Positions 1 through 58,630 of a DNA stretch of 64,000 bases are shown one piece after another (position 1 is the first letter of the stretch; every line of letters starts with the position of its first letter). The position numbers were made by a program, and so were the translations under genes. Below the pieces are notes generated by a model. That model saw only the letters and a program-made list of their open reading frames with translations, was not told where the DNA came from and did not search any database. Source of the stretch: a virus; the IMG/VR virus record IMGVR_UViG_3300020469_000009; one strand, 5' to 3'.

Positions 1-123
1 TGTTGCTGCTCTAGCATAAGCCTCTTGGGGAGACTTTTCGCTTTTACGCATATAAAAATCTCTTAACATTCCTCTTGCGTAATCTGCCAACAAGCCATCA
101 CGTTCGGTATTAACTTTTACCAT
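1..123 (-). CDS. nrdA: Ribonucleotide reductase large subunit, 5' end (truncated by window edge)
   Basis: Manual translation MVKVNTERDGLLADYARGMLRDFYMRKSEKSPQEAYARAAT resembles class I RNR alpha N-termini (L.D.Y...E.SPQEA.ARA); ATG overlaps the primase stop (TAATG). Confidence 0.75.
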   Translation of the reverse strand, partial: MVKVNTERDGLLADYARGMLRDFYMRKSEKSPQEAYARAAT

Positions 124-953
124 TATACTCTCTTCCAGTTATCTAATTTAATTTTCGCTTGTAGACCTTGATAGATATTTTCTTGAATGATTTTGTGAGG
201 ATTGAGGTTTTCTAATATCATATCATTTATATCTTTTGTTCTTACATTATCAGGCCAAATTACTATCTTGAAACCTCTGTCAATAAACTTAGAATATTTA
301 GAAATTATTTCTGCATTTCGCGGTTCATTGTCTAGACATATTATCATGTCCGAATTAAGATATTTATTTTTAGCCATATCCGAACCGGCCATCGCGAGGC
401 AATTAGGCAAAAATAAACTGTCAATAGGACCTTCTACTACTATAGTTTCTTTAGTTTCATCCCATCTTTCTAAACCAAATATTTTATCTTTACTTTTATC
501 TAGTAATATAGTGATATATTTTGGTTGACTATCATCTAAGGCTCTTGCTTGTAAAGCAAATAGCTTATTTTCTTTGTCATAAAATGGTATGATTATTTTT
601 TTTTGGCCGTCTTTGAGATTGTACCCGTACCTATTAACCAAGCTTCCAAGAAACTCAGTGTATAGAAACTTATTATAATGGCTAACAGGAATCCTACGGC
701 TCCGTAAGAATTGTATGCACTCATGAGAATCGTGAAGACTAGAAGCCCTCGGCAAATCAGATAAGATGCTGCTATGATTGATGGAGACTTGCTTGTTAAT
801 GCTAGGCCTAGACTTATTAGAGAGGCTGTTAATAATAGTATCATATCTTTGGTTACGTTGACATCCATGACATAAAAACATTTTTACATCATTATCATTG
901 TACACAAACGCAGGGGTAGTGCCGCAATACGGGCACGCTATTTCCATCACCAT
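123..953 (-). CDS. gp61: DNA primase (T4 gp61-like)
   Basis: N-terminal CPYC...CHGC zinc finger; TOPRIM motifs VVEGPIDSLF, DNEPRN, KDINDMI. Confidence 0.95.
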   Translation of the reverse strand: MVMEIACPYCGTTPAFVYNDNDVKMFLCHGCQRNQRYDTIINSLSNKSRPSINKQVSINHSSILSDLPRASSLHDSHECIQFLRSRRIPVSHYNKFLYTEFLGSLVNRYGYNLKDGQKKIIIPFYDKENKLFALQARALDDSQPKYITILLDKSKDKIFGLERWDETKETIVVEGPIDSLFLPNCLAMAGSDMAKNKYLNSDMIICLDNEPRNAEIISKYSKFIDRGFKIVIWPDNVRTKDINDMILENLNPHKIIQENIYQGLQAKIKLDNWKRV

Positions 954-960
954 AGATAGA

Positions 961-1518
961 TTATACTTCTATCTTTTTCTTCTTTTTCTTTTTTTCAGTG
1001 CCACCGTCAAGTAAAGAATCTATTCCTACTAAACCAGTAGCATTTAAAGCTGCATTAGTATCAGCTCCAGATAAAGGTCCACCAAATGCTGCACCAGATG
1101 TCATAGACTCTTCCATAGCATCTAACATAGCATCCCAATAACCTTCTTTTGTAGTGAGGTCCCAATCTTCTTTGGTACAAATACCGTGTTCAACAAATCT
1201 TTCTTGTAAATACTCTGCAGTTTCAGAGTTTGTATGTTGTTCTGTATATTCTTTAATAAGCATAAGTGCAGCTACATAAGTGCCAAACCTAGCACCACCT
1301 GGTACTTTAGATATTAGTCTTTTTAAATTCCAAACTAATCTGTCTAGCATATTGAAAGAGGCTTTTTGCTTTTTATCTCTATCTCTTTTATTTACTAGTA
1401 TCTTGCCTTTTTTATCAATAACACCTGTTTTAAACGCATCCCATTTGGAATACTTCATTGTAAGTTTACGAAGCATTCTAAAAACAAATATTGTATCTAC
1501 TACACTTTTTCCAGCCAT
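961..1518 (-). CDS. Conserved T4-like protein (gp61.1-like) with a C-terminal mimic of the major capsid protein N-arm
   Basis: WDAFKTGVIDKKG...LKRLISKVPG family signature next to primase; residues 136-167 match gp23 residues 49-80 at 20/32. Confidence 0.75.
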   Translation of the reverse strand: MAGKSVVDTIFVFRMLRKLTMKYSKWDAFKTGVIDKKGKILVNKRDRDKKQKASFNMLDRLVWNLKRLISKVPGGARFGTYVAALMLIKEYTEQHTNSETAEYLQERFVEHGICTKEDWDLTTKEGYWDAMLDAMEESMTSGAAFGGPLSGADTNAALNATGLVGIDSLLDGGTEKKKKKKKIEV

Positions 1519-1525
1519 ACTCTAT

Positions 1526-1900
1526 TTAATTCCCAAGTTTCTTTAGTAATACTGCAGTTTCCAGGCTAAATTTAACTTCAACCCAATCAGATTCATGAAG
1601 ATATGATAGATATTCAAATATTGTTTTAAACACTCTTTTTTCAGCATCATTGCAATGGAACATCATAAGTTCTTTGGCAGCATCTGTTTCAAATACATTA
1701 AAGAACAATATAACATGGTTGACTAATAAACGTATGTTTACATCTTTACCATTTACAATTTTTGTGGCTAATTTACGAGCATATTGTGATTTACGTAAGT
1801 CGTCTTGGAATTCTTTTTTGTCGGCAGCATAGACATTTCTATAATGCTTAAAAGCGTATTTCTCGAAATTTTTCTTATCCAGCTGCATCGATGTGACCAT
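1526..1900 (-). CDS. Conserved hypothetical protein of T4-like phages
   Basis: YAFKHY...EFQDDL...RLLVNHVILFFNVF pattern recalled from marine T4-like phages; lies in a late operon. Confidence 0.75.
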   Translation of the reverse strand: MVTSMQLDKKNFEKYAFKHYRNVYAADKKEFQDDLRKSQYARKLATKIVNGKDVNIRLLVNHVILFFNVFETDAAKELMMFHCNDAEKRVFKTIFEYLSYLHESDWVEVKFSLETAVLLKKLGN

Positions 1901-2273: not shown

Positions 2274-2277
2274 AGGT

Positions 2278-2285
2278 TATTTATA
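2278..2285 (-). promoter_or_regulatory. T4-type late promoter TATAAATA
   Basis: Exact gp55 consensus 4 nt upstream of ATG 2273. Confidence 0.8.
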
Positions 2286-2288
2286 CAA

Positions 2289-2319
2289 GAAGGGAAGAGA
2301 TGTTAAGTCTCTTCCCTTC
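2289..2319 (-). terminator. Stem-loop, probable terminator after the YRG peptide gene
   Basis: 12-bp inverted repeat GAAGGGAAGAGA/TCTCTTCCCTTC with a 7-nt loop; U-tract is short. Confidence 0.65.
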
Positions 2320-2343: not shown

Positions 2344-2466
2344 TTAAGCAGCAAGTTTTCCAGTAATTCCACGATAAGTGACTTCGTCACTTTTCTTCGC
2401 TTTAGTTACTGGCGGCTTGCTTTTTAAGGTTTTTGCATCGTATTTGATACCTCTGTAGCAGTACAT
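2344..2466 (-). CDS. 40-aa basic peptide with two YRG motifs (DUF4278-like)
   Basis: MYCYRGIKYD...VTYRGITGKLAA; RBS GGAGG-taat-ATG supports the 2466 start over the track's 2526. Confidence 0.8.
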   Translation of the reverse strand: MYCYRGIKYDAKTLKSKPPVTKAKKSDEVTYRGITGKLAA

Positions 2467-35987: not shown

Positions 35988-37478
35988 TTACACGTTGTCA
36001 ACTCTGAATTTTCTGTAGTACATGTTTGAATCAGGAGCATGTAAACCTTGAGATTGGATAGTTCTAGAAGCGAACGGGTTTGAAACCATTCCATATCTAG
36101 TTTTAAATCCAATTTTAGGTTGGAATGTTTCCTGACTAACCGCACGAACCATTTGTAATGGAACGTAAGGACAATAGAACATACCTGCATCCATATTGTT
36201 AGTACCTTTATAACCAACAACAACATAGTCGCCGTTAGTTGCATAAGGATCAACATAGACTTTTGTACGTCCATTTAGTACTCCAGCAAACGTACCACTA
36301 GTTACGTCTACATTTAGATTATCTTGTAATCCAGATGTATAGTCTAGTAGTCCAGCCATTGTTAAAGCTGATGCAACGTTAGCAGAACAAAGGATAAAGT
36401 TTCCTTTTCCTCTTCGAGTTTCAAATGCAATTTTATTACATTCTTTTTCGATTTGCATCATAAGGCCTTTTTGTCTCTCAACAGACCATCTTCCTTGACC
36501 GTCAGCGATCAAGTCGAATATTCCGTTAGTAGTTAAGCCTTGTGCTCCGTATTTAGCCTGAGATAGGATTGTGTGTACAACTTCTCTATTGATTTCCGCT
36601 AGGATTTCAGTAGAAAGAATGTTAGCTAATTCAGCCTCAGCGTCCAAACCGTGGACAGCTTTAAGGTCTTGAACTAGTTCCATAGTGTATTCACTTTTGA
36701 GAGCTCTTGTTTTAGCTTCAACAGCTGTTCTCTCAATTGTGAAAGACATTTCACGGAAGTTGTCACCTTCTCCTTCTCTTGTGTTCATTCCGAAAGAAGT
36801 ATTTCCTTCAGCTTGTCCACTTGGCATATAGCCAGAGTTTAGGTTAGGGTTTGCAGTAACTGTGTCTACAAATGGGTCATTCACAGGTGTGATTGATCCA
36901 GTATCAGTTACGGGGTCAGAGTCAGCAGTGCTAACACCATCATTTTTAGCTCTAGAGACAGCGAATGGATTTCCAGCCGCGTCCGTGTTGCTTCCTGCAG
37001 AGTGCGTATTAGGTTTCCCTGTATTAAACGCAGTACCTGAGAAGTTAGAGAACGGTTCGTCGTACATGGCTTCAATACCAAGACCATTACCATCGCCACT
37101 AACACCTTCGTTAGTATTGTTGTATCTTGCTCTTAGCGCGAATATAAGACCAGTTGGAGCGTTCATAGGTTGAACACCACATAAGTCAAATGCCATCATT
37201 TGTGGAACCGCACGTCTAACTAGAGATATAATGATAGGGTCATAACCAGCTCGACCAGTAGCGTTTACAGCACTATTCGTGTTTGCTCCACTCATAGCAC
37301 CACCAAAGCTAGCACCAGATAAAGAAGCTTCTTCTAAGTTTTGCTCCTCTGCTAATGCCTTCTCTGTATTTTCGAGAACTTGTGCAAGAACAGCTTTCTT
37401 ATCACGCTCATCTACTTTTGGTAAATCTTCGTGTTCGATTACTGGAGCCCATTTCTCTGTAAGTACGTCGTATGACAT
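35988..37478 (-). CDS. gp23: Major capsid protein (gp23)
   Basis: GVQPMNAPTGLIFALR, RALKSEYTMELVQDLKAVHGLDAE, FYCPYVPL, FQPKIGFKTRYG. Confidence 0.99.
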   Translation of the reverse strand: MSYDVLTEKWAPVIEHEDLPKVDERDKKAVLAQVLENTEKALAEEQNLEEASLSGASFGGAMSGANTNSAVNATGRAGYDPIIISLVRRAVPQMMAFDLCGVQPMNAPTGLIFALRARYNNTNEGVSGDGNGLGIEAMYDEPFSNFSGTAFNTGKPNTHSAGSNTDAAGNPFAVSRAKNDGVSTADSDPVTDTGSITPVNDPFVDTVTANPNLNSGYMPSGQAEGNTSFGMNTREGEGDNFREMSFTIERTAVEAKTRALKSEYTMELVQDLKAVHGLDAEAELANILSTEILAEINREVVHTILSQAKYGAQGLTTNGIFDLIADGQGRWSVERQKGLMMQIEKECNKIAFETRRGKGNFILCSANVASALTMAGLLDYTSGLQDNLNVDVTSGTFAGVLNGRTKVYVDPYATNGDYVVVGYKGTNNMDAGMFYCPYVPLQMVRAVSQETFQPKIGFKTRYGMVSNPFASRTIQSQGLHAPDSNMYYRKFRVDNV

Positions 37479-37545: not shown

Positions 37546-39540
37546 TTATTTAAGTGCAGTTTTAGACAAGTATCTAACGTACTGCGAAACAACTGGGTTT
37601 CCAGTTCCTTCTACTTCAGGTTGGCTTTCGCCTTCCTTCCCTGCGAAAACTTCATCACCATAAGATGACAGAGCTTTGGCTGCAGTTTCTGGAGAATCAA
37701 AGTAGGACTCTTTGAGAGCCTCTAGCTTCTCTTTGTACTCATTAGTACTACCAGCTTCTACACTGTCTCCCAATTTTTCTAGGCGTATCTTTTGGGTTTC
37801 AGTTAAACCTTCACTTACTTCAGTAGTAATGTCGGCTTTTTCGTAAGCTAGTACCTTCTCTTGCAGCTTTTCAACAAGTTCGTCTTTCTCACCAATTTGG
37901 TCTTTATATCCTTCAACCGCCTCGGTAAGTTCATCAACAACCTTAATATCATCTTCAGGTATGTCAATGTAATTCTTTTCAAATAGACCTTTAAGGTCTT
38001 TTATAAAGTTCTCAGCTATTTCTGTTCTTAGAGAATACTTAATTTCTAAAGCATTTTCTTTTAGCCACTCTTCAGTAGCATAGTCAGTATATTTAGAGAA
38101 CTTTTCTTCTAATTCTTTGATTCTATCAGCATTTTCAGCTTCTAATTTTTCTTCGATTTCAGAAACTTTAGCATTTACTTTTTCATTTACCGCAGTTTCA
38201 AAGACTATAGCAGCTTTAGATTTGAAATCTTCATCAAGGTCAACATCTTCTTCCATGTCATCCTCTTTTTCATCCATATCTTTTTTCATTTCTTTAGGCT
38301 CTTCTTTAGTCTCTTTAACGTCATCTTCTTCTTCATCCATGTCGTCTTTAGCCATTTCTTCCATATCTTTTTTCATCTCCTTAGGCTCATCCTCTTCCTC
38401 GTCCATATCATCTTTTTTCATTTCTGATACGCCTTTTTTAGGATCGGAATCATCTTTCATTGGAGTTTCAACTGGGTCTTTACCTTGGTCATGAGGACCT
38501 TTATCAGCTTCAGCTTCTTCTTTATCAACATCGCCTTTAGCCATATCTAAAGTAGCTTTATCTTGCGGTGGTAAATTCTTATCATTAGCATTTTTTTCAA
38601 TTTCAGTAGGTTGCTTTTCAGCTTTTACTTCATTAGCATCCTCATCCATTTTTTCGTCTTCTTCTTTTTCCATGTCCTTCATTTCTTTTTTCTCATCGTC
38701 TTTATGGGACATTTCTTCGACTTCTTTAGTTTCTTTCTTTTCGTCTTCTTCCTCGTCCATATCATCTTTTGCCATTTCTTTAACTTCTTCTTTGGCACCA
38801 TCTTTACGGACTTTAGCTAAATCAGCTGCGTCGATGTCTCCATCGCCGTCTTTATCTAATTTTTTCTGATCACCTTTAAGCTCTTCTTTTTCCATATCTT
38901 TAGACATTTCTTCGACTTCTTTAGTCTCTTTTTTATCGTCTTTTTTATCTTTGATAGCTTTTTGTAGAGCAGGTGGTAATTTTTTCTGGCCAGCAGATAA
39001 TTCTTCTTTAACGTCATCTTCTTCTTCGTCCATGTCGTCTTTTTTCATTTCTTTTGGCTCTTCTTTAGTCTCCTTAACTTCGTCTTCTTCCTCATCCATA
39101 TCTTTTTCAGCTTCTTCTTCTTTAGTTTCAGCTACTTTTTTCTTTGGATCAGAATCGTCTTTCATTGGAGTTTCAATAGGGTCTTTTTCTTGGTCGTGAG
39201 CAGGTTTATCAGCTTCTACTTCAGCAGATTCGTCTCCGCCACCAGTACCTTTATCACCACCTTTGTCAGTCATTGGCTCTGCACCCGTTTCATTTTTATC
39301 TGGCTCAGCAGTTGGAGCGGCCGCTTGTTTATTAGCCAAAGTTTCTTTTTCGTCTGCAGGTAATTCTTTATCGTTGACGTTCTTTTGAACAGTAGTATCT
39401 TGGCCCTCAGTGACTTCTTCCTCTTGAGGGTTTTTGATTTCGTCTTTTTTAGTCATATCAGCTTCTTTTGCTTGAAGGTTTTTCTCCATCAAGTCTTCTA
39501 TGACTTCAATAAGACCTTTTTTCTCTTCGTTATCTGACAT
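37546..39540 (-). CDS. gp22: Prohead core scaffold protein (gp22), expanded and repetitive
   Basis: C-terminal EDFKSKAAIVFETAV...EEWLKEN...LFEKNYIDIPE core; long K/E/D/M repeat N-terminal region; between gp21 and gp23. Confidence 0.9.
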   Translation of the reverse strand: MSDNEEKKGLIEVIEDLMEKNLQAKEADMTKKDEIKNPQEEEVTEGQDTTVQKNVNDKELPADEKETLANKQAAAPTAEPDKNETGAEPMTDKGGDKGTGGGDESAEVEADKPAHDQEKDPIETPMKDDSDPKKKVAETKEEEAEKDMDEEEDEVKETKEEPKEMKKDDMDEEEDDVKEELSAGQKKLPPALQKAIKDKKDDKKETKEVEEMSKDMEKEELKGDQKKLDKDGDGDIDAADLAKVRKDGAKEEVKEMAKDDMDEEEDEKKETKEVEEMSHKDDEKKEMKDMEKEEDEKMDEDANEVKAEKQPTEIEKNANDKNLPPQDKATLDMAKGDVDKEEAEADKGPHDQGKDPVETPMKDDSDPKKGVSEMKKDDMDEEEDEPKEMKKDMEEMAKDDMDEEEDDVKETKEEPKEMKKDMDEKEDDMEEDVDLDEDFKSKAAIVFETAVNEKVNAKVSEIEEKLEAENADRIKELEEKFSKYTDYATEEWLKENALEIKYSLRTEIAENFIKDLKGLFEKNYIDIPEDDIKVVDELTEAVEGYKDQIGEKDELVEKLQEKVLAYEKADITTEVSEGLTETQKIRLEKLGDSVEAGSTNEYKEKLEALKESYFDSPETAAKALSSYGDEVFAGKEGESQPEVEGTGNPVVSQYVRYLSKTALK

Positions 39541-39575: not shown

Positions 39576-40226
39576 TTATTGATTCTCTAAGAACCTTTTA
39601 AACAATTTTAGTTTTGTATTATTTAATTCTCTACGACCGGCCTCAAGCAACTCTTTTCTAGCTTTTTCAAGGTCGATTCTTTGCCATACACCTGACTCAT
39701 ATATCCAATCCGCTTGCTCATAAACTCCCTCAACGAAAGCCTCTTGAGCAGATGGGTCAAATACAACATCAGCTGCTGTAGTTAAGACAAAATCTTCTTG
39801 CACTTCATTATATCCCTGACGAGTCATTCTCAAAGAACCTAATCCTCGAGATGAAACACCAATTTTTACGCCATCGTCAAGTAGATTTTCAACGATTTTA
39901 CCCATTGGAGTACTAAGGACTTGTGCTTTTCCTTTATAGTAATAGCCATCTCTAGTTAACTCTTTCGTCATGATAGCCGCTCTTTCAGGGTTTACAACCG
40001 GCTCAGCCGGGTGGTTTAATTCACCTAGTGCTCTTGACTGGGCGATATAATCTTTTTTATAAGCTTCAACAGCTTTATCCATTACGTGTTGAGGATAAAC
40101 ACGTCCATTTCTATTTTGTTTTTCTGCTTGTAAGAATGGACCTTGGATAAATTTCCTTTTTTGTTCTTTACCTTCTGTAAGAACTTCAAGGTCATTGAAT
40201 GAAATATCTTCTTTGATTAATTTCAT
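39576..40226 (-). CDS. gp21: Prohead protease (gp21)
   Basis: NRNGRVYP, ALGELNHP, GVSSRGLGS, DVVFDPSA. Confidence 0.97.
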   Translation of the reverse strand: MKLIKEDISFNDLEVLTEGKEQKRKFIQGPFLQAEKQNRNGRVYPQHVMDKAVEAYKKDYIAQSRALGELNHPAEPVVNPERAAIMTKELTRDGYYYKGKAQVLSTPMGKIVENLLDDGVKIGVSSRGLGSLRMTRQGYNEVQEDFVLTTAADVVFDPSAQEAFVEGVYEQADWIYESGVWQRIDLEKARKELLEAGRRELNNTKLKLFKRFLENQ

Positions 40227-48438: not shown

Positions 48439-48825
48439 TTACTCTTTACCTAATAGCTCTAACAAATCTTTGGTATTTAGTTTTACATTTAGATTGTTAT
48501 TCGTCACATTGCTATCTTTTGTCACACCTTTATTAATTTTCTCCACACGAATGTGATGGTCCATTAGTTGGCCTGCAATATTACCTAGCGTTTGTGCCGT
48601 ATTAGATGCTACTTCAATGGCTCGCGGGTGCTCGGACTCCTGCGCGAGTTGAACAGCACTATCAAGTACATCTTGAAGTCTCTCGCTTGCAGCGTACAGG
48701 ACTTCCCTGGCATACTCGTAGTCATCTTGACGATGTTGTACTAATTTGGCTACTTGACCTTTGGTATCTTTTACCTCGGTATCTAGTTCAGTTAGTTGCT
48801 TTTTTTCATCTCCATTTTTTTCCAT
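48439..48825 (-). CDS. gp16: Terminase small subunit (gp16)
   Basis: DDYEYARE, ESEHPRAIEV, VTNNNL...T.DL; immediately upstream of gp17. Confidence 0.9.
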   Translation of the reverse strand: MEKNGDEKKQLTELDTEVKDTKGQVAKLVQHRQDDYEYAREVLYAASERLQDVLDSAVQLAQESEHPRAIEVASNTAQTLGNIAGQLMDHHIRVEKINKGVTKDSNVTNNNLNVKLNTKDLLELLGKE

Positions 48826-48850
48826 ACTCTATTTATAGTATAAGTATAAT

Positions 48851-57497: not shown

Positions 57498-58248
57498 ATT
57501 AGATTTTACAGTTAATGTTGATGCAATGGTAAAGCAGCTGGAAGTTGCTAAAGCTATGTATAAGGCAATATATGATGACCACGGTTATGGACCACAATTT
57601 GGTGGATTGTCTATTTTGTCAGACAATGGTGACCCTCTTAGAGGAATGATATCAGGAAAACAAGCATGGGAAGAAGGAAAAATTAATTTTGAATTGGCAA
57701 TAAAAAAAGGTATCAATTTTGAATATAACTATGATAAGAAAACTAAGTTATGTATAGGAGAAACTGAAAGAGTAATTGATTTACTAGATGATATGGGTAT
57801 GACTCCAAGAAGAGCAAGATATACTGTGCTTAAACCTGGTGGAAAGAGTTCTATACATAATGATTCAAAAAGCGGTGAATATGCTTGTAGGATTCACATA
57901 CCTTTAATTACAAATAAAAAATGTACACACTCTTTATTTTTAGAAGATGGTACAAAGATAGATGAAAAACATTTTCCTGCTGATGGCAGTGTTTACATTA
58001 TGCAAGTAAATAATGTTCACCAAATTATAAATCCTACTGAAAAAGAAAGATGGCATTTTCTGTGTAGTTGTTATGATTCTACAGGATATAGTCCATTTAA
58101 AATATCTAACAATGAGTTAAACACTGTAAAGGTAAAGGCAGAAGCTTTTAAGAATGGTGTAAAATGGACGGAAGGTGGTGGTAAATTATTTGAAGATATT
58201 ACTCATACTTCTCAAGTTCATCAGCCAGACCAGGAAAGTAATACTTAG
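57484..58248 (+). CDS. Asp/Asn beta-hydroxylase-like Fe(II)/2OG oxygenase (paralog)
   Basis: RARY, HND, RIHIPLITN, ADGSVY, HQIIN, RWH. Confidence 0.78.
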   Translation: MWWAKLDFTVNVDAMVKQLEVAKAMYKAIYDDHGYGPQFGGLSILSDNGDPLRGMISGKQAWEEGKINFELAIKKGINFEYNYDKKTKLCIGETERVIDLLDDMGMTPRRARYTVLKPGGKSSIHNDSKSGEYACRIHIPLITNKKCTHSLFLEDGTKIDEKHFPADGSVYIMQVNNVHQIINPTEKERWHFLCSCYDSTGYSPFKISNNELNTVKVKAEAFKNGVKWTEGGGKLFEDITHTSQVHQPDQESNT

Positions 58249-58618
58249 TTCCAACTTTAGCTTGCAGTTCTACAAACTCATCATATGTCATTTCACTAAT
58301 TGTATGTTCTACAGTACCACCGCCAGAATCAGGTATTGATTGTAAGATAGGTTGAATTGTATTTAACATTTCAGTAGCTGAAGATTCATCTTTCATAACA
58401 CGATAAGTGTTCATTTGAAACTCACCATTTTTTCTATCTTTTTCATCTAATAATCTGATAAAGAAAAGCATTTTGTTTTGTTCAACATAACCACCTTGTG
58501 ATTCTAGTAATGCTGATAACTGATCTCTAGACATATGTGAATATATGTATAAACCAAACTCGGCTTCTAAGACTGTTTCGTCACTTGGAACTGATAGTGT
58601 AGTTTTTAATGCATGCAT
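58199..58618 (-). CDS. Hypothetical late protein
   Basis: 139 aa; TATAAATA 4 nt upstream. Confidence 0.65.
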   Translation of the reverse strand: MHALKTTLSVPSDETVLEAEFGLYIYSHMSRDQLSALLESQGGYVEQNKMLFFIRLLDEKDRKNGEFQMNTYRVMKDESSATEMLNTIQPILQSIPDSGGGTVEHTISEMTYDEFVELQAKVGTKYYFPGLADELEKYE

Positions 58619-58630
58619 ACATTATTTATA

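What the first reader, a model, noticed from the sequence alone, without database searches (positions are those of the whole stretch)
961..1518. Protein beside primase carries a copy of the capsid protein cleavage site and mature N-arm
Seen: residues 136-167 EESMTSGAAFGGPLSGADTNAALNATGLVGID (nt 1018-1113) align without gaps to gp23 residues 49-80 EEASLSGASFGGAMSGANTNSAVNATGRAGYD (nt 37239-37334), 20/32 identical, 36 kb away, followed by a poly-Lys tail. Established: gp21 cleaves gp23 after a Glu in this region, creating the mature N-terminus. From memory and unverified, T4-family gp61.1 proteins resemble their own gp23 N-arm, which would imply co-evolution. Inference: a late-expressed capsid mimic that fills vacant N-arm sites (for example at vertices or the portal), titrates gp21, or decoys capsid-sensing host defences.
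Basis: partly seen in the sequence, partly recalled or inferred. Interest (0 to 1): 0.82.

Follow-up and report, generated by a model that had tools for sequence, protein, structure and literature searches.

The report
Capsid-arm copy in gp61.1 protein
The gene just upstream of the primase in this marine T4-like phage (T4 gene 61.1 family, function unknown) ends in a selection-maintained copy of the stretch of its own major capsid protein that the head protease cuts, plus a lysine tail, so it is probably an overlooked, protease-trimmed head component.

Summary
Residues 135-170 of the 185-aa ORF at 961-1518(-) match residues 48-83 of the window's gp23 (20/36 identical, BLASTP E=1e-10). That is 16 SD above composition-preserving shuffles and survives low-complexity filtering. 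A Lys7 tail follows.

The ORF is a long form of the T4 gp61.1 family and lies directly upstream of primase. At least 110 of 143 family members carry the same C-terminal module: hydrophobic-x-Glu, about 30 Gly/Ala/Ser/Asn-rich residues, then a Lys/Arg-rich tail. The copied gp23 stretch is the gp21 maturation site plus the 'N-fist' (T4 gp23* 66-91).

T4's 54-aa gp61.1 matches T4 gp23 in the same way (E=6e-9). It starts with a decapeptide 7/10 identical to the IPII/IPIII capsid-targeting sequence.

Resemblance to the phage's own gp23 is clear-cut at the level of deep lineages: the window lineage, Straboviridae, phiM12. It is not seen at fine scale. Synonymous sites are saturated, so recent gene conversion is unlikely.

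Best reading (about 0.45): a prohead-directed protein cut by gp21, releasing a basic N-fist-like peptide. No function was shown. 'Late-expressed' is unproven, and T4's transcript is early.

This scan found the same thing before on other DNA. I found no paper that describes it.

The parts
961..1518 (-). gp61.1-family gene, long form, 185 aa
   Evidence: ORF. PHROG 18642 (6.5e-26) and PHROG 2086 (8.7e-19). tblastn hits to genes annotated '61.1' in Acj9, Acj61, Aeh1 and PX29. 65 metagenomic homologues.
1177..1518 (-). Conserved N-terminal domain (residues 1-114), helical, fold unknown
   Evidence: This is the most widely conserved part of the family (alignment A2; tblastn coverage). AF2 gives pLDDT 73-87 for residues 10-70, all helices. 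No PDB fold match. T4 gp61.1 lacks this domain.
1108..1116 (-). Met135-Glu136-Glu137, aligned to the Leu-Glu-Glu maturation site of gp23; predicted gp21 cut after Glu137
   Evidence: Alignment. P3 is hydrophobic (M 40, L 29, I 15, V 13, F 12) among the 110 members in which the parser found a hydrophobic-x-Glu site; the Glu at P1 was part of the search pattern, so its presence is not an independent result. gp23 proteins of the same lineage carry L, I or M at P3, then x-Glu. Cleavage itself is inferred, not shown.
1009..1107 (-). N-fist-like segment (residues 138-170), a copy of the gp23 mature N-terminus
   Evidence: Profile-profile comparison of site plus N-fist gives probability 96%, E=1.6e-9, while the part before the site shows no homology. 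AF2 predicts the segment to be disordered on its own.
973..993 (-). Lys7 tail (residues 176-182)
   Evidence: Read directly from the sequence. A Lys/Arg-rich tail 21-37 residues after the site (mode about 30) in most of the 110 parsed members.
35988..37478 (-). gp23 major capsid protein; the copied region is residues 48-83, nt 37230-37337
   Evidence: Pfam Gp23 1e-134. Alignment. No second gp23/gp24 paralogue in the window.
39576..40226 (-). gp21 prohead protease, the presumed processing enzyme
   Evidence: Pfam Peptidase_S77, 3.6e-38.
37546..39540 (-). gp22-type scaffolding protein, 664 aa, extremely acidic; a possible partner for the Lys tail (inference only)
   Evidence: Pfam T4_CASP, 1.9e-41. 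Composition visible.
123..953 (-). DNA primase (gp61), 7 nt downstream of the gp61.1-family gene
   Evidence: PHROG 47 DNA primase, 2.3e-53. The same neighbourhood occurs in Acj9, Vibrio D484, S13, EcS1 and Aeh1, and with one or two small genes between in Phynn and phiM12.
1526..1900 (-). DUF7207 gene immediately upstream; a conserved neighbour outside Straboviridae
   Evidence: Pfam DUF7207, 1.2e-23. It holds the same position in L130/L131. By eye the gene at the same position in S-RIM2, S-SKS1 and ACG-2014f looks homologous; not tested against Pfam.
2278..2285 (-). TATAAATA, 4 nt before the ATG of ORF 1875-2273; a possible late promoter for the run ORF132, DUF7207, gp61.1, primase
   Evidence: The same TATAAATA-N4-ATG arrangement stands at the small terminase gene (48825), and another TATAAATA lies 87 nt upstream of the sheath gene. 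This is a consensus match only.

Best explanation
ORF 961-1518(-) is a long-form member of the T4 gp61.1 family. It has two parts. The first is a conserved helical N-terminal region of about 134 residues. The second is a C-terminal module that copies, at the protein level, the piece of the phage's own major capsid protein running from the head-protease cleavage site through the N-fist, and then ends in a Lys-rich tail.

The most likely mechanism has four steps.
1. The protein is taken into the assembling prohead. The N-terminal region plays the part that the 10-residue capsid-targeting sequence plays in T4's 54-aa short form.
2. The prohead protease gp21 cuts after Glu137, at Met-Glu-Glu|Ser, just as it cuts gp23 after the aligned Leu-Glu-Glu|Ala.
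3. The released peptide of about 48 residues has the same kind of N-terminus as mature gp23 and a basic tail.
4. That peptide stays with the head, engaging whatever the gp23 N-fist engages (neighbouring gp23 surfaces, or before expansion the core) and, through its tail, DNA or the acidic scaffold.

Shown here: family membership, the mimicry, its maintenance by selection, the conserved hydrophobic-x-Glu site, and the presence of gp21. Inferred: prohead entry, cleavage, and the fate and partner of the peptide.
For: 1. The mimicry is real and specific. It is confined to the cleavage site plus N-fist: hhalign probability 96%, E=1.6e-9, with no signal upstream of the site.
2. It is kept by selection on the protein. 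Nucleotide identity is 67/108. Among the 20 identical residues, 11 codons are identical against 9.6 expected from codon usage. The module stays conserved while the N-domain drifts to about 50% identity.
3. The module is a family trait. At least 110 of 143 distinct members have hydrophobic-x-Glu, then a small-residue segment, mostly 21-37 residues long, then a Lys/Arg-rich tail. gp23 proteins of the same lineage have L, I or M at P3, then x-Glu, at the aligned place.
4. The window encodes gp21 (Peptidase_S77). T4 gp21 cuts after Glu in head proteins (PMC5694885).
5. T4 gp61.1 lacks the N-domain. It starts with a decapeptide 7/10 identical to the IPII/IPIII capsid-targeting sequence, conserving positions 7, 8 and 10, with Phe for Tyr at position 4; the review names positions 4 and 7 for targeting and 8 and 10 for processing (PMC9026906).
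6. One relative (L110) carries an ADP-ribosyltransferase-like domain downstream of the module: ExoT match E=0.005 with the STS and E-x-E motifs aligned. This recalls T4 Alt, which is packaged and cut by gp21.
7. [quoted passage not shown]
8. The copied stretch equals the N-fist, T4 gp23* 66-91. That stretch lies inside and disordered in the unexpanded head and later makes inter-capsomer and Soc contacts (PMC7136217, PMC9546572).
Against: No experiment places any gp61.1 protein in a head. The T4 head mass-spectrometry paper I read lists nine processed head proteins and never mentions 61.1. The T4 time-course proteome did not detect the protein, and its transcript is classed early. ORF185 itself has no targeting-sequence-like N-terminus. 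Its P3 residue is Met, not the Leu or Ile of the T4 consensus. Nothing forces a protease substrate to copy 30 residues on the P' side, so cleavage alone does not explain the mimicry. Some lineages keep the N-domain with a different C-terminal part or none (HTVC008M, Melnitz, Astolliot). The two parts therefore need not serve a single purpose.
Confidence: 0.45

Rival explanations
1. Cytoplasmic pseudo-substrate of gp21. The protein stays outside the prohead and offers a copy of the main cleavage site. Any prematurely active protease is then occupied or inhibited before gp23 is assembled, or the timing of maturation is tuned.
For: The copy spans both sides of the scissile bond. The site is conserved across the family. 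T4's transcript is early, before head assembly. The module is predicted to be disordered and accessible.
Against: T4's form starts with a capsid-targeting-like decapeptide, which points into the head. The conserved basic tail and the enzyme-fused relative have no role in this model. Known gp21 sites share only a hydrophobic residue, any residue, then Glu, so a 30-residue P' copy is more than a decoy needs.
Confidence: 0.15
2. Decoy or blocker for a host factor that recognises the N-terminal region of gp23, for example a capsid-sensing defence system, a protease or a chaperone. The free copy is made early and soaks up or masks the sensor.
For: In T4 the gene lies between genes 41 and 61, next to dmd and sp (annotation). 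From memory, this stretch also holds other counter-defence genes. The T4 transcript is early. The copied stretch ends just before gp23 residue 93, where, from memory, the Gol peptide sensed by Lit begins. Resemblance follows the phage's own gp23 type at lineage level.
Against: The family is conserved in position and design across enteric, marine, cyanobacterial and rhizobial T4-like phages. That is unlike typical patchy, host-specific counter-defence genes. The conserved Glu site, the basic tail and the T4 targeting-like start are unexplained. No known sensor targets this stretch.
Confidence: 0.12
3. Assembly regulator. The module competes with the gp23 N-terminal region for the scaffolding core (gp22) or for gp23-gp23 contacts. 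It thereby limits aberrant polymerisation or influences head size.
For: Before expansion the gp23 N-terminus lies inside and probably contacts the core. Head-length mutations map to A66, A94 and G97 of T4 gp23 (PMC9546572). The window's scaffold protein is extremely acidic, a natural partner for a Lys7 tail.
Against: There is no direct evidence. Gene 61.1 has not emerged from the classical T4 head-morphogenesis genetics (my knowledge, unverified). This model overlaps with the best explanation rather than excluding it.
Confidence: 0.1
4. The resemblance is a chance match of two low-complexity Gly/Ala/Ser/Asn-rich segments, or a functionless remnant of a recombination event between the two genes.
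For: Both segments are rich in small residues. Some lineages show only marginal similarity to their own gp23, with z between 0.4 and 3.5.
Against: z=16 against shuffles of the same composition. E=1e-8 with SEG filtering on. The pattern recurs independently in T4, phiM12 and cyanophages. Synonymous sites are saturated while the residues are kept. The module is conserved across the lineage.
Confidence: 0.03

Closest known systems
T4 gp61.1 (54 aa, 'hypothetical protein') and its long forms annotated '61.1' in Acj9, Acj61, Aeh1 and PX29 (PHROG 2086 / 18642)
   Same: The position directly upstream of primase gene 61. The C-terminal module of hydrophobic-x-Glu, an N-fist-like stretch matching the phage's own gp23 type, and a Lys/Arg-rich tail. 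The N-domain is homologous to the Acj9-type long forms.
   Different: T4 has only the module, preceded by a 10-residue targeting-like leader. The window protein has a leader region of about 134 residues instead. The N-fist sequence itself is of a different type, following the window lineage's gp23.
T4 internal proteins IPI, IPII, IPIII and Alt (capsid-targeting sequence, cut by gp21, basic, delivered with the DNA)
   Same: A hydrophobic-x-Glu site separates a leader from a basic product. T4 gp61.1's first ten residues are 7/10 identical to the IPII/IPIII targeting sequence. A relative carries an ADP-ribosyltransferase-like cargo, as Alt does.
   Different: ORF185 has no targeting decapeptide. 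No internal protein is known to copy the capsid protein's own mature N-terminus. Neither packaging nor cleavage of gp61.1 has been shown.
gp23 major capsid protein, N-fist (T4 gp23* residues 66-91) and maturation site
   Same: 36 residues align at 56% identity, including the cleavage site. The consensus of the lineage's gp23 N-fists and that of its gp61.1 modules agree at 20 of 33 positions.
   Different: There is no HK97-fold body and no Pfam Gp23 hit. The annotations 'major capsid protein' (Pantoea phage Phynn) and 'capsid protein' (Vibrio phage 1.081.O) for homologues are mis-annotations, probably caused by this short match.
Long N-terminal propeptides of head proteins in giant phages (SPN3US gp50, gp53, gp54; 124-127 residues)
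   Same: A leader longer than 100 residues, removed by a T4-type prohead protease after Glu (PMC5694885). This would parallel the stretch of about 137 residues before the predicted cut.
   Different: There is no sequence relationship. In SPN3US the cleavage was shown by mass spectrometry, whereas here it is only inferred.

Membership tests
gp61.1 family (PHROG 2086 / 18642) | Significant sequence similarity to proteins annotated 61.1 | tested here: met
   PHROG 18642 at 6.5e-26 and PHROG 2086 at 8.7e-19 over residues 3-181. tblastn to Acj9 61.1 at 1e-13 over residues 2-166.
gp61.1 family (PHROG 2086 / 18642) | Position immediately upstream of the primase gene, same strand | tested here: met
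   A 7-nt gap to primase 123-953(-). The same neighbourhood is seen in T4, Acj9, Vibrio D484, S13, EcS1 and Aeh1.
gp61.1 family (PHROG 2086 / 18642) | C-terminal module: hydrophobic-x-Glu, small-residue segment resembling the gp23 mature N-terminus, Lys/Arg-rich tail | tested here: met
   The module was found in at least 110 of 143 distinct members.
Capsid-targeted, gp21-processed internal head proteins (IP/Alt type) | N-terminal decapeptide targeting sequence of the IPII/IPIII type | tested here: not met
   ORF185's first ten residues bear no resemblance to it. T4 gp61.1 does meet this feature, 7/10 identical.
Capsid-targeted, gp21-processed internal head proteins (IP/Alt type) | gp21 cleavage motif Leu/Ile-x-Glu | tested here: inconclusive
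   The site is Met-Glu-Glu, with Met at P3. gp23 proteins of this lineage carry L, I or M at P3, so Met may be accepted, but this protease's specificity is unknown.
Capsid-targeted, gp21-processed internal head proteins (IP/Alt type) | A cognate prohead protease is encoded | tested here: met
   Peptidase_S77 at 39576-40226(-), 3.6e-38.
Capsid-targeted, gp21-processed internal head proteins (IP/Alt type) | Physical presence in proheads or virions, and observed cleavage | not testable with these tools
   This needs mass spectrometry or N-terminal sequencing. The literature I could read gives no detection.
Gp23 major capsid protein (PF07068) | HK97-fold capsid body matching the Pfam model | tested here: not met
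   No Pfam family at E<=0.1. The similarity is limited to 36 residues. AF2 shows helices plus a disordered tail.

The most novel reading that the evidence does not exclude
A trans-acting capsid arm. The released peptide is a free N-fist that docks on gp23 where the lattice cannot supply one, for example the capsomers facing the portal, where the gp23 N-fists are disordered in T4. Its Lys tail meanwhile holds DNA or neck components. On this view T4-type heads contain a conserved, so far unseen, symmetry-completing minor subunit. That would explain why about 30 P'-side residues are kept like the phage's own gp23 type.
Probability: 0.15. Interest if true: 0.85.

Novelty: new variant of a known kind. 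Interest (0 to 1): 0.62.

Why it matters
T4 head assembly is one of the best-studied assembly pathways. Yet a gene conserved across enteric, marine, cyanobacterial and rhizobial T4-like phages still has no function. Its product is a free-standing copy of the exact piece of the capsid protein that is cut and then refolds during maturation.

If it is a head component, the parts list of the T4 head is incomplete. The design of a leader, a protease site and a basic capsid-arm copy would then be a general way of loading peptides, and in some phages enzymes, into heads. If it acts in the cytoplasm instead, it would be a new kind of capsid mimic that controls the protease or host sensors.

Either way the hypothesis is directly testable in T4 with a 54-codon deletion and one mass-spectrometry run. 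On a practical level, homologues are being mis-annotated as capsid proteins.

Tried and rejected
- Complex prediction of gp21 (alignment A3) with ORF185 residues 96-185 (from A2) gave no verdict: score 0.00 and controls not run. This is no evidence either way.
- AF2 on the whole protein gave mean pLDDT 59. Only residues 10-70 are moderately confident.
- Foldseek against the PDB found nothing below E=2.7. BFVD returned only homologues of the same family.
- The language-model atlas search returned unnamed viral clusters only.
- Pfam found nothing for ORF185.
- I tested whether the stretch before the cleavage site copies the gp23 propeptide. It does not: hhalign score 10, against up to 13 for column-shuffled controls. 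The longer alignment is carried by the N-fist.
- Recent gene conversion is rejected by codon analysis.
- A low-complexity artefact is rejected.
- Fine-scale co-variation inside the window's own lineage could not be tested. The 165-169 kb contigs that carry relatives are in ENA/Logan and cannot be searched by the genome search. The one long IMG/VR contig of the lineage lacks gp23. A second IMG/VR scan gave only short contigs.
- 11 of the 15 IMG/VR contigs I searched held no full gp23 gene.
- A kinase-like reading of the C-terminal domain of the Rhizobium phage RHph_I1_18 homologue got no support.
- Literature searches for gp61.1 or 61.1 found no functional statement.

Full report
**The observation**

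The ORF at 961-1518 on the minus strand encodes 185 residues. BLASTP against the window's gp23 (35988-37478, minus strand; Pfam Gp23 1e-134) aligns residues 135-170 with gp23 residues 48-83. The alignment has no gaps, 20/36 identities and 29/36 positives, and E=1e-10 with composition-adjusted statistics.

The match is not a composition effect.
- Its local score is 110, against 26 +/- 5 (maximum 56) for 5000 shuffles of the same residues.
- With SEG filtering on, a six-frame search of the whole window still returns gp23 at E=1e-8 and nothing else.
- Only gp23 and this ORF carry the motif.

Seven consecutive lysines follow five residues later.

**What the gene is**

The next gene downstream, 7 nt away, is the DNA primase. 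The ORF matches two PHROGs of unknown function, 18642 and 2086. By tblastn it matches 444 phage records, among them genes annotated '61.1' in Acinetobacter phages Acj9 and Acj61 and Aeromonas phages Aeh1 and PX29. It is therefore a long form of the T4 gene 61.1 family.

The window is a marine, uncultured T4-like phage at 33% G+C. It has gp20, gp21, gp22, gp23, sheath and terminase genes on the same strand. Close relatives of the protein (50-93% identity) are common in ocean metagenomes.

**Anatomy**

Alignment of 26 homologues (A2) shows three parts:
- a well-conserved N-terminal domain (residues 1 to about 114);
- a variable linker;
- a conserved C-terminal module.

AF2 gives moderate confidence only for helices in residues 10-70 and predicts the module to be disordered. 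No solved fold matches.

The module has three elements. The first is a hydrophobic residue, any residue, then Glu; here it is Met135-Glu136-Glu137. The second is about 30 residues rich in Gly, Ala, Ser, Asn and Thr. The third is a Lys/Arg-rich tail. A simple parser finds this design in at least 110 of 143 distinct family members. P3 is Met, Leu, Ile, Val or Phe, and the distance from the site to the basic tail has a mode near 30 residues. Most of the remaining members are long forms that the parser mis-read and that show the module.

**What exactly is copied**

In gp23 proteins of this lineage the aligned position reads Leu, Ile or Met, any residue, then Glu, followed by Ala or Ser. This corresponds to the T4 gp21 maturation site; T4 gp21 cuts after Glu (PMC5694885). 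The residues after it correspond to the N-fist, T4 gp23* residues 66-91 (PMC7136217).

According to the T4 head structures, this stretch is disordered and inside the shell before expansion, probably touching the core. Afterwards it is externalised and makes inter-capsomer contacts and part of the Soc site (PMC9546572).

Profile-profile comparison confirms that homology is confined to the site plus N-fist: probability 96%, E=1.6e-9, against shuffled-column scores of at most 9. The stretch before the site has no similarity to the gp23 propeptide.

**Is it a family-wide relationship?**

T4's own gp61.1 is only 54 residues and aligns to T4 gp23 residues 57-93 with 17/37 identities, E=6e-9.

I collected 21 pairs of gp61.1-type proteins with the gp23 of the same genome, from named phages and IMG/VR contigs.
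- Scores against the phage's own gp23 lie 11-23 SD above shuffles for eight Straboviridae.
- Sinorhizobium phage phiM12 lies 5 SD above shuffles.
- Four cyanophage-type genomes and Rhizobium phage RHph_I1_18 score only 0.3-3.5 SD above shuffles. They share little more than the site and a Pro-x-Asn start.

The score matrix is block-like. The window module scores 110 on its own gp23 and at most 39 elsewhere. phiM12 scores 46 against at most 31. The Straboviridae score 50-117 among themselves and at most 48 outside.

Permuting the pairing gives p=0.001 with one representative for each of ten lineages. Within Straboviridae there is no fine tracking (p=0.13). The S-RIM2 module fits the gp23 of another cyanophage-type contig better than its own. 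'Co-evolution' is therefore supported only as concerted similarity at the level of deep lineages.

**Selection versus conversion**

The two DNA segments are 62% identical. Among the 20 identical residues, 11 use the same codon against 9.6 expected from the window's codon usage, and one conserved Ser uses TCT in one copy and AGT in the other. The copy is old and the resemblance is held at the protein level. The consensus N-fist of 53 gp23 proteins and the consensus module of 15 gp61.1 proteins of this lineage agree at 20 of 33 positions.

**Clues to mechanism**

1. The Glu site is kept at the aligned place across the family, and the window encodes gp21.
2. T4's short form replaces the N-terminal domain by a decapeptide 7/10 identical to the capsid-targeting sequence of IPII and IPIII. 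It conserves positions 7, 8 and 10 and has Phe for Tyr at position 4; a review assigns positions 4 and 7 to targeting and 8 and 10 to processing (PMC9026906).
3. Cyanophages show further layouts of the same idea. One is a 61-residue short form in ACG-2014f, whose tail after the lysines also copies the first conserved gp23 helix. Another is a leader plus module in S-SKS1. A third, in S-RIM2, begins directly with the N-fist copy.
4. One IMG/VR relative carries an ADP-ribosyltransferase-like domain after the module (Pfam 4e-4, below threshold; ExoT E=0.005 with the STS and E-x-E motifs aligned). This recalls the packaged, gp21-cut T4 Alt.
5. Propeptides longer than 100 residues are known in giant-phage head proteins.

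Together these favour a prohead-directed protein that gp21 trims, releasing a basic peptide with a gp23-like N-terminus.

Cleavage alone does not explain why 30 residues on the P' side mimic gp23. The simplest inference is that the peptide binds what the N-fist binds. I could not test this.

**Evidence against, and timing**

No paper I could search assigns a function or location to gp61.1. The T4 head mass-spectrometry study does not mention it. In a T4 time course the transcript is 'early' and the protein was not detected. The T4 locus has no TATAAATA.

In this window a TATAAATA lies 4 nt before the ATG of ORF 1875-2273, three genes upstream of ORF185, with no terminator-like site that scan could place on the coding strand in between. 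The identical TATAAATA-N4-ATG arrangement precedes the small terminase gene. Late expression is therefore possible here but unproven.

Pelagiphage HTVC008M, Melnitz and Pseudomonas phage Astolliot keep the N-domain without the module.

**Comparison with what is known, and verdict**

The protein is a member of the gp61.1 family on all three features tested. It works most like the capsid-targeted, gp21-processed internal proteins, but it is not shown to be one: it lacks the targeting decapeptide, and cleavage and packaging are untested. It is not a capsid protein, and 'capsid protein' annotations of homologues are errors.

Earlier notes of this scan reached the same reading on other genomes. I re-tested their main claims here. 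I rate it a new variant of a known kind, with moderate to high interest. The mimicry is certain and the mechanism remains open.

Noticed in passing
window 2274-2285, 48826-48837, 58619-58630 (all minus strand): TATAAATA stands exactly 4 nt before the ATG of three genes: ORF 1875-2273, the small terminase homologue 48439-48825, and ORF 58199-58618. Another copy lies 87 nt upstream of the sheath gene. The spacing would give nearly leaderless late transcripts.
   Followed up: partly
window 2289-2319: A perfect 13-bp stem-loop sits between a 40-codon ORF with a GGAGG ribosome-binding site (about 2344-2466, minus strand) and the TATAAATA at 2278-2285. It may be a terminator or processing site separating the DNA polymerase unit from the unit that contains gp61.1.
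   Followed up: no
L110:1992-3380 (IMG/VR contig 3300025769_000116): A gp61.1-family protein of 463 aa. The N-domain, the module and a basic stretch are followed by a domain resembling ADP-ribosyltransferases (ExoT E=0.005, STS and E-x-E motifs aligned; Pfam ADPrib_exo_Tox 4e-4, below threshold).
   Followed up: partly
L144:824-1009 (Synechococcus phage ACG-2014f): A 61-residue short form. After its lysine run, the last 12 residues include a 10-residue stretch that copies the first conserved helix of its own gp23, the segment just before and including Arg-Arg-Ser-x-Pro. In some lineages the mimicry therefore extends beyond the N-fist. Similar Val-Arg-Arg tails occur in Pantoea phage Phynn and in IMG/VR loci L072 and L089.
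   Followed up: partly
L142:443-985 (S-RIM2) and L143:555-1013 (S-SKS1): The S-RIM2 protein begins directly with the N-fist copy, with no leader and no cleavage site. The S-SKS1 protein has a 14-residue leader plus an N-fist copy at its start and a second generic module near its C-terminus.
   Followed up: partly
L006:1477-1974 (Pantoea phage Phynn) and L020:1180-1659 (Vibrio phage 1.081.O): gp61.1 homologues are annotated 'major capsid protein' and 'capsid protein'. This is most likely because of the short N-fist match.
   Followed up: yes
window 37546-39540 (minus strand): The gp22-type scaffolding protein is unusually long (664 aa). It has a large, repetitive, extremely acidic N-terminal region ahead of the conserved T4_CASP domain (residues 430-655).
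   Followed up: no
window 1526-1900; L130/L131; L142-L144: A DUF7207 gene sits immediately upstream of the gp61.1-type gene, often overlapping it, in the window and its relatives L130/L131; the gene at that place in three cyanophages looks homologous by eye (untested). This is a conserved gene pair of unknown meaning.
   Followed up: no
L017:41-1204 (Rhizobium phage RHph_I1_18): A 387-aa family member. The N-domain, a weak module and a basic stretch are followed by a domain of about 190 residues with no detectable family.
   Followed up: partly
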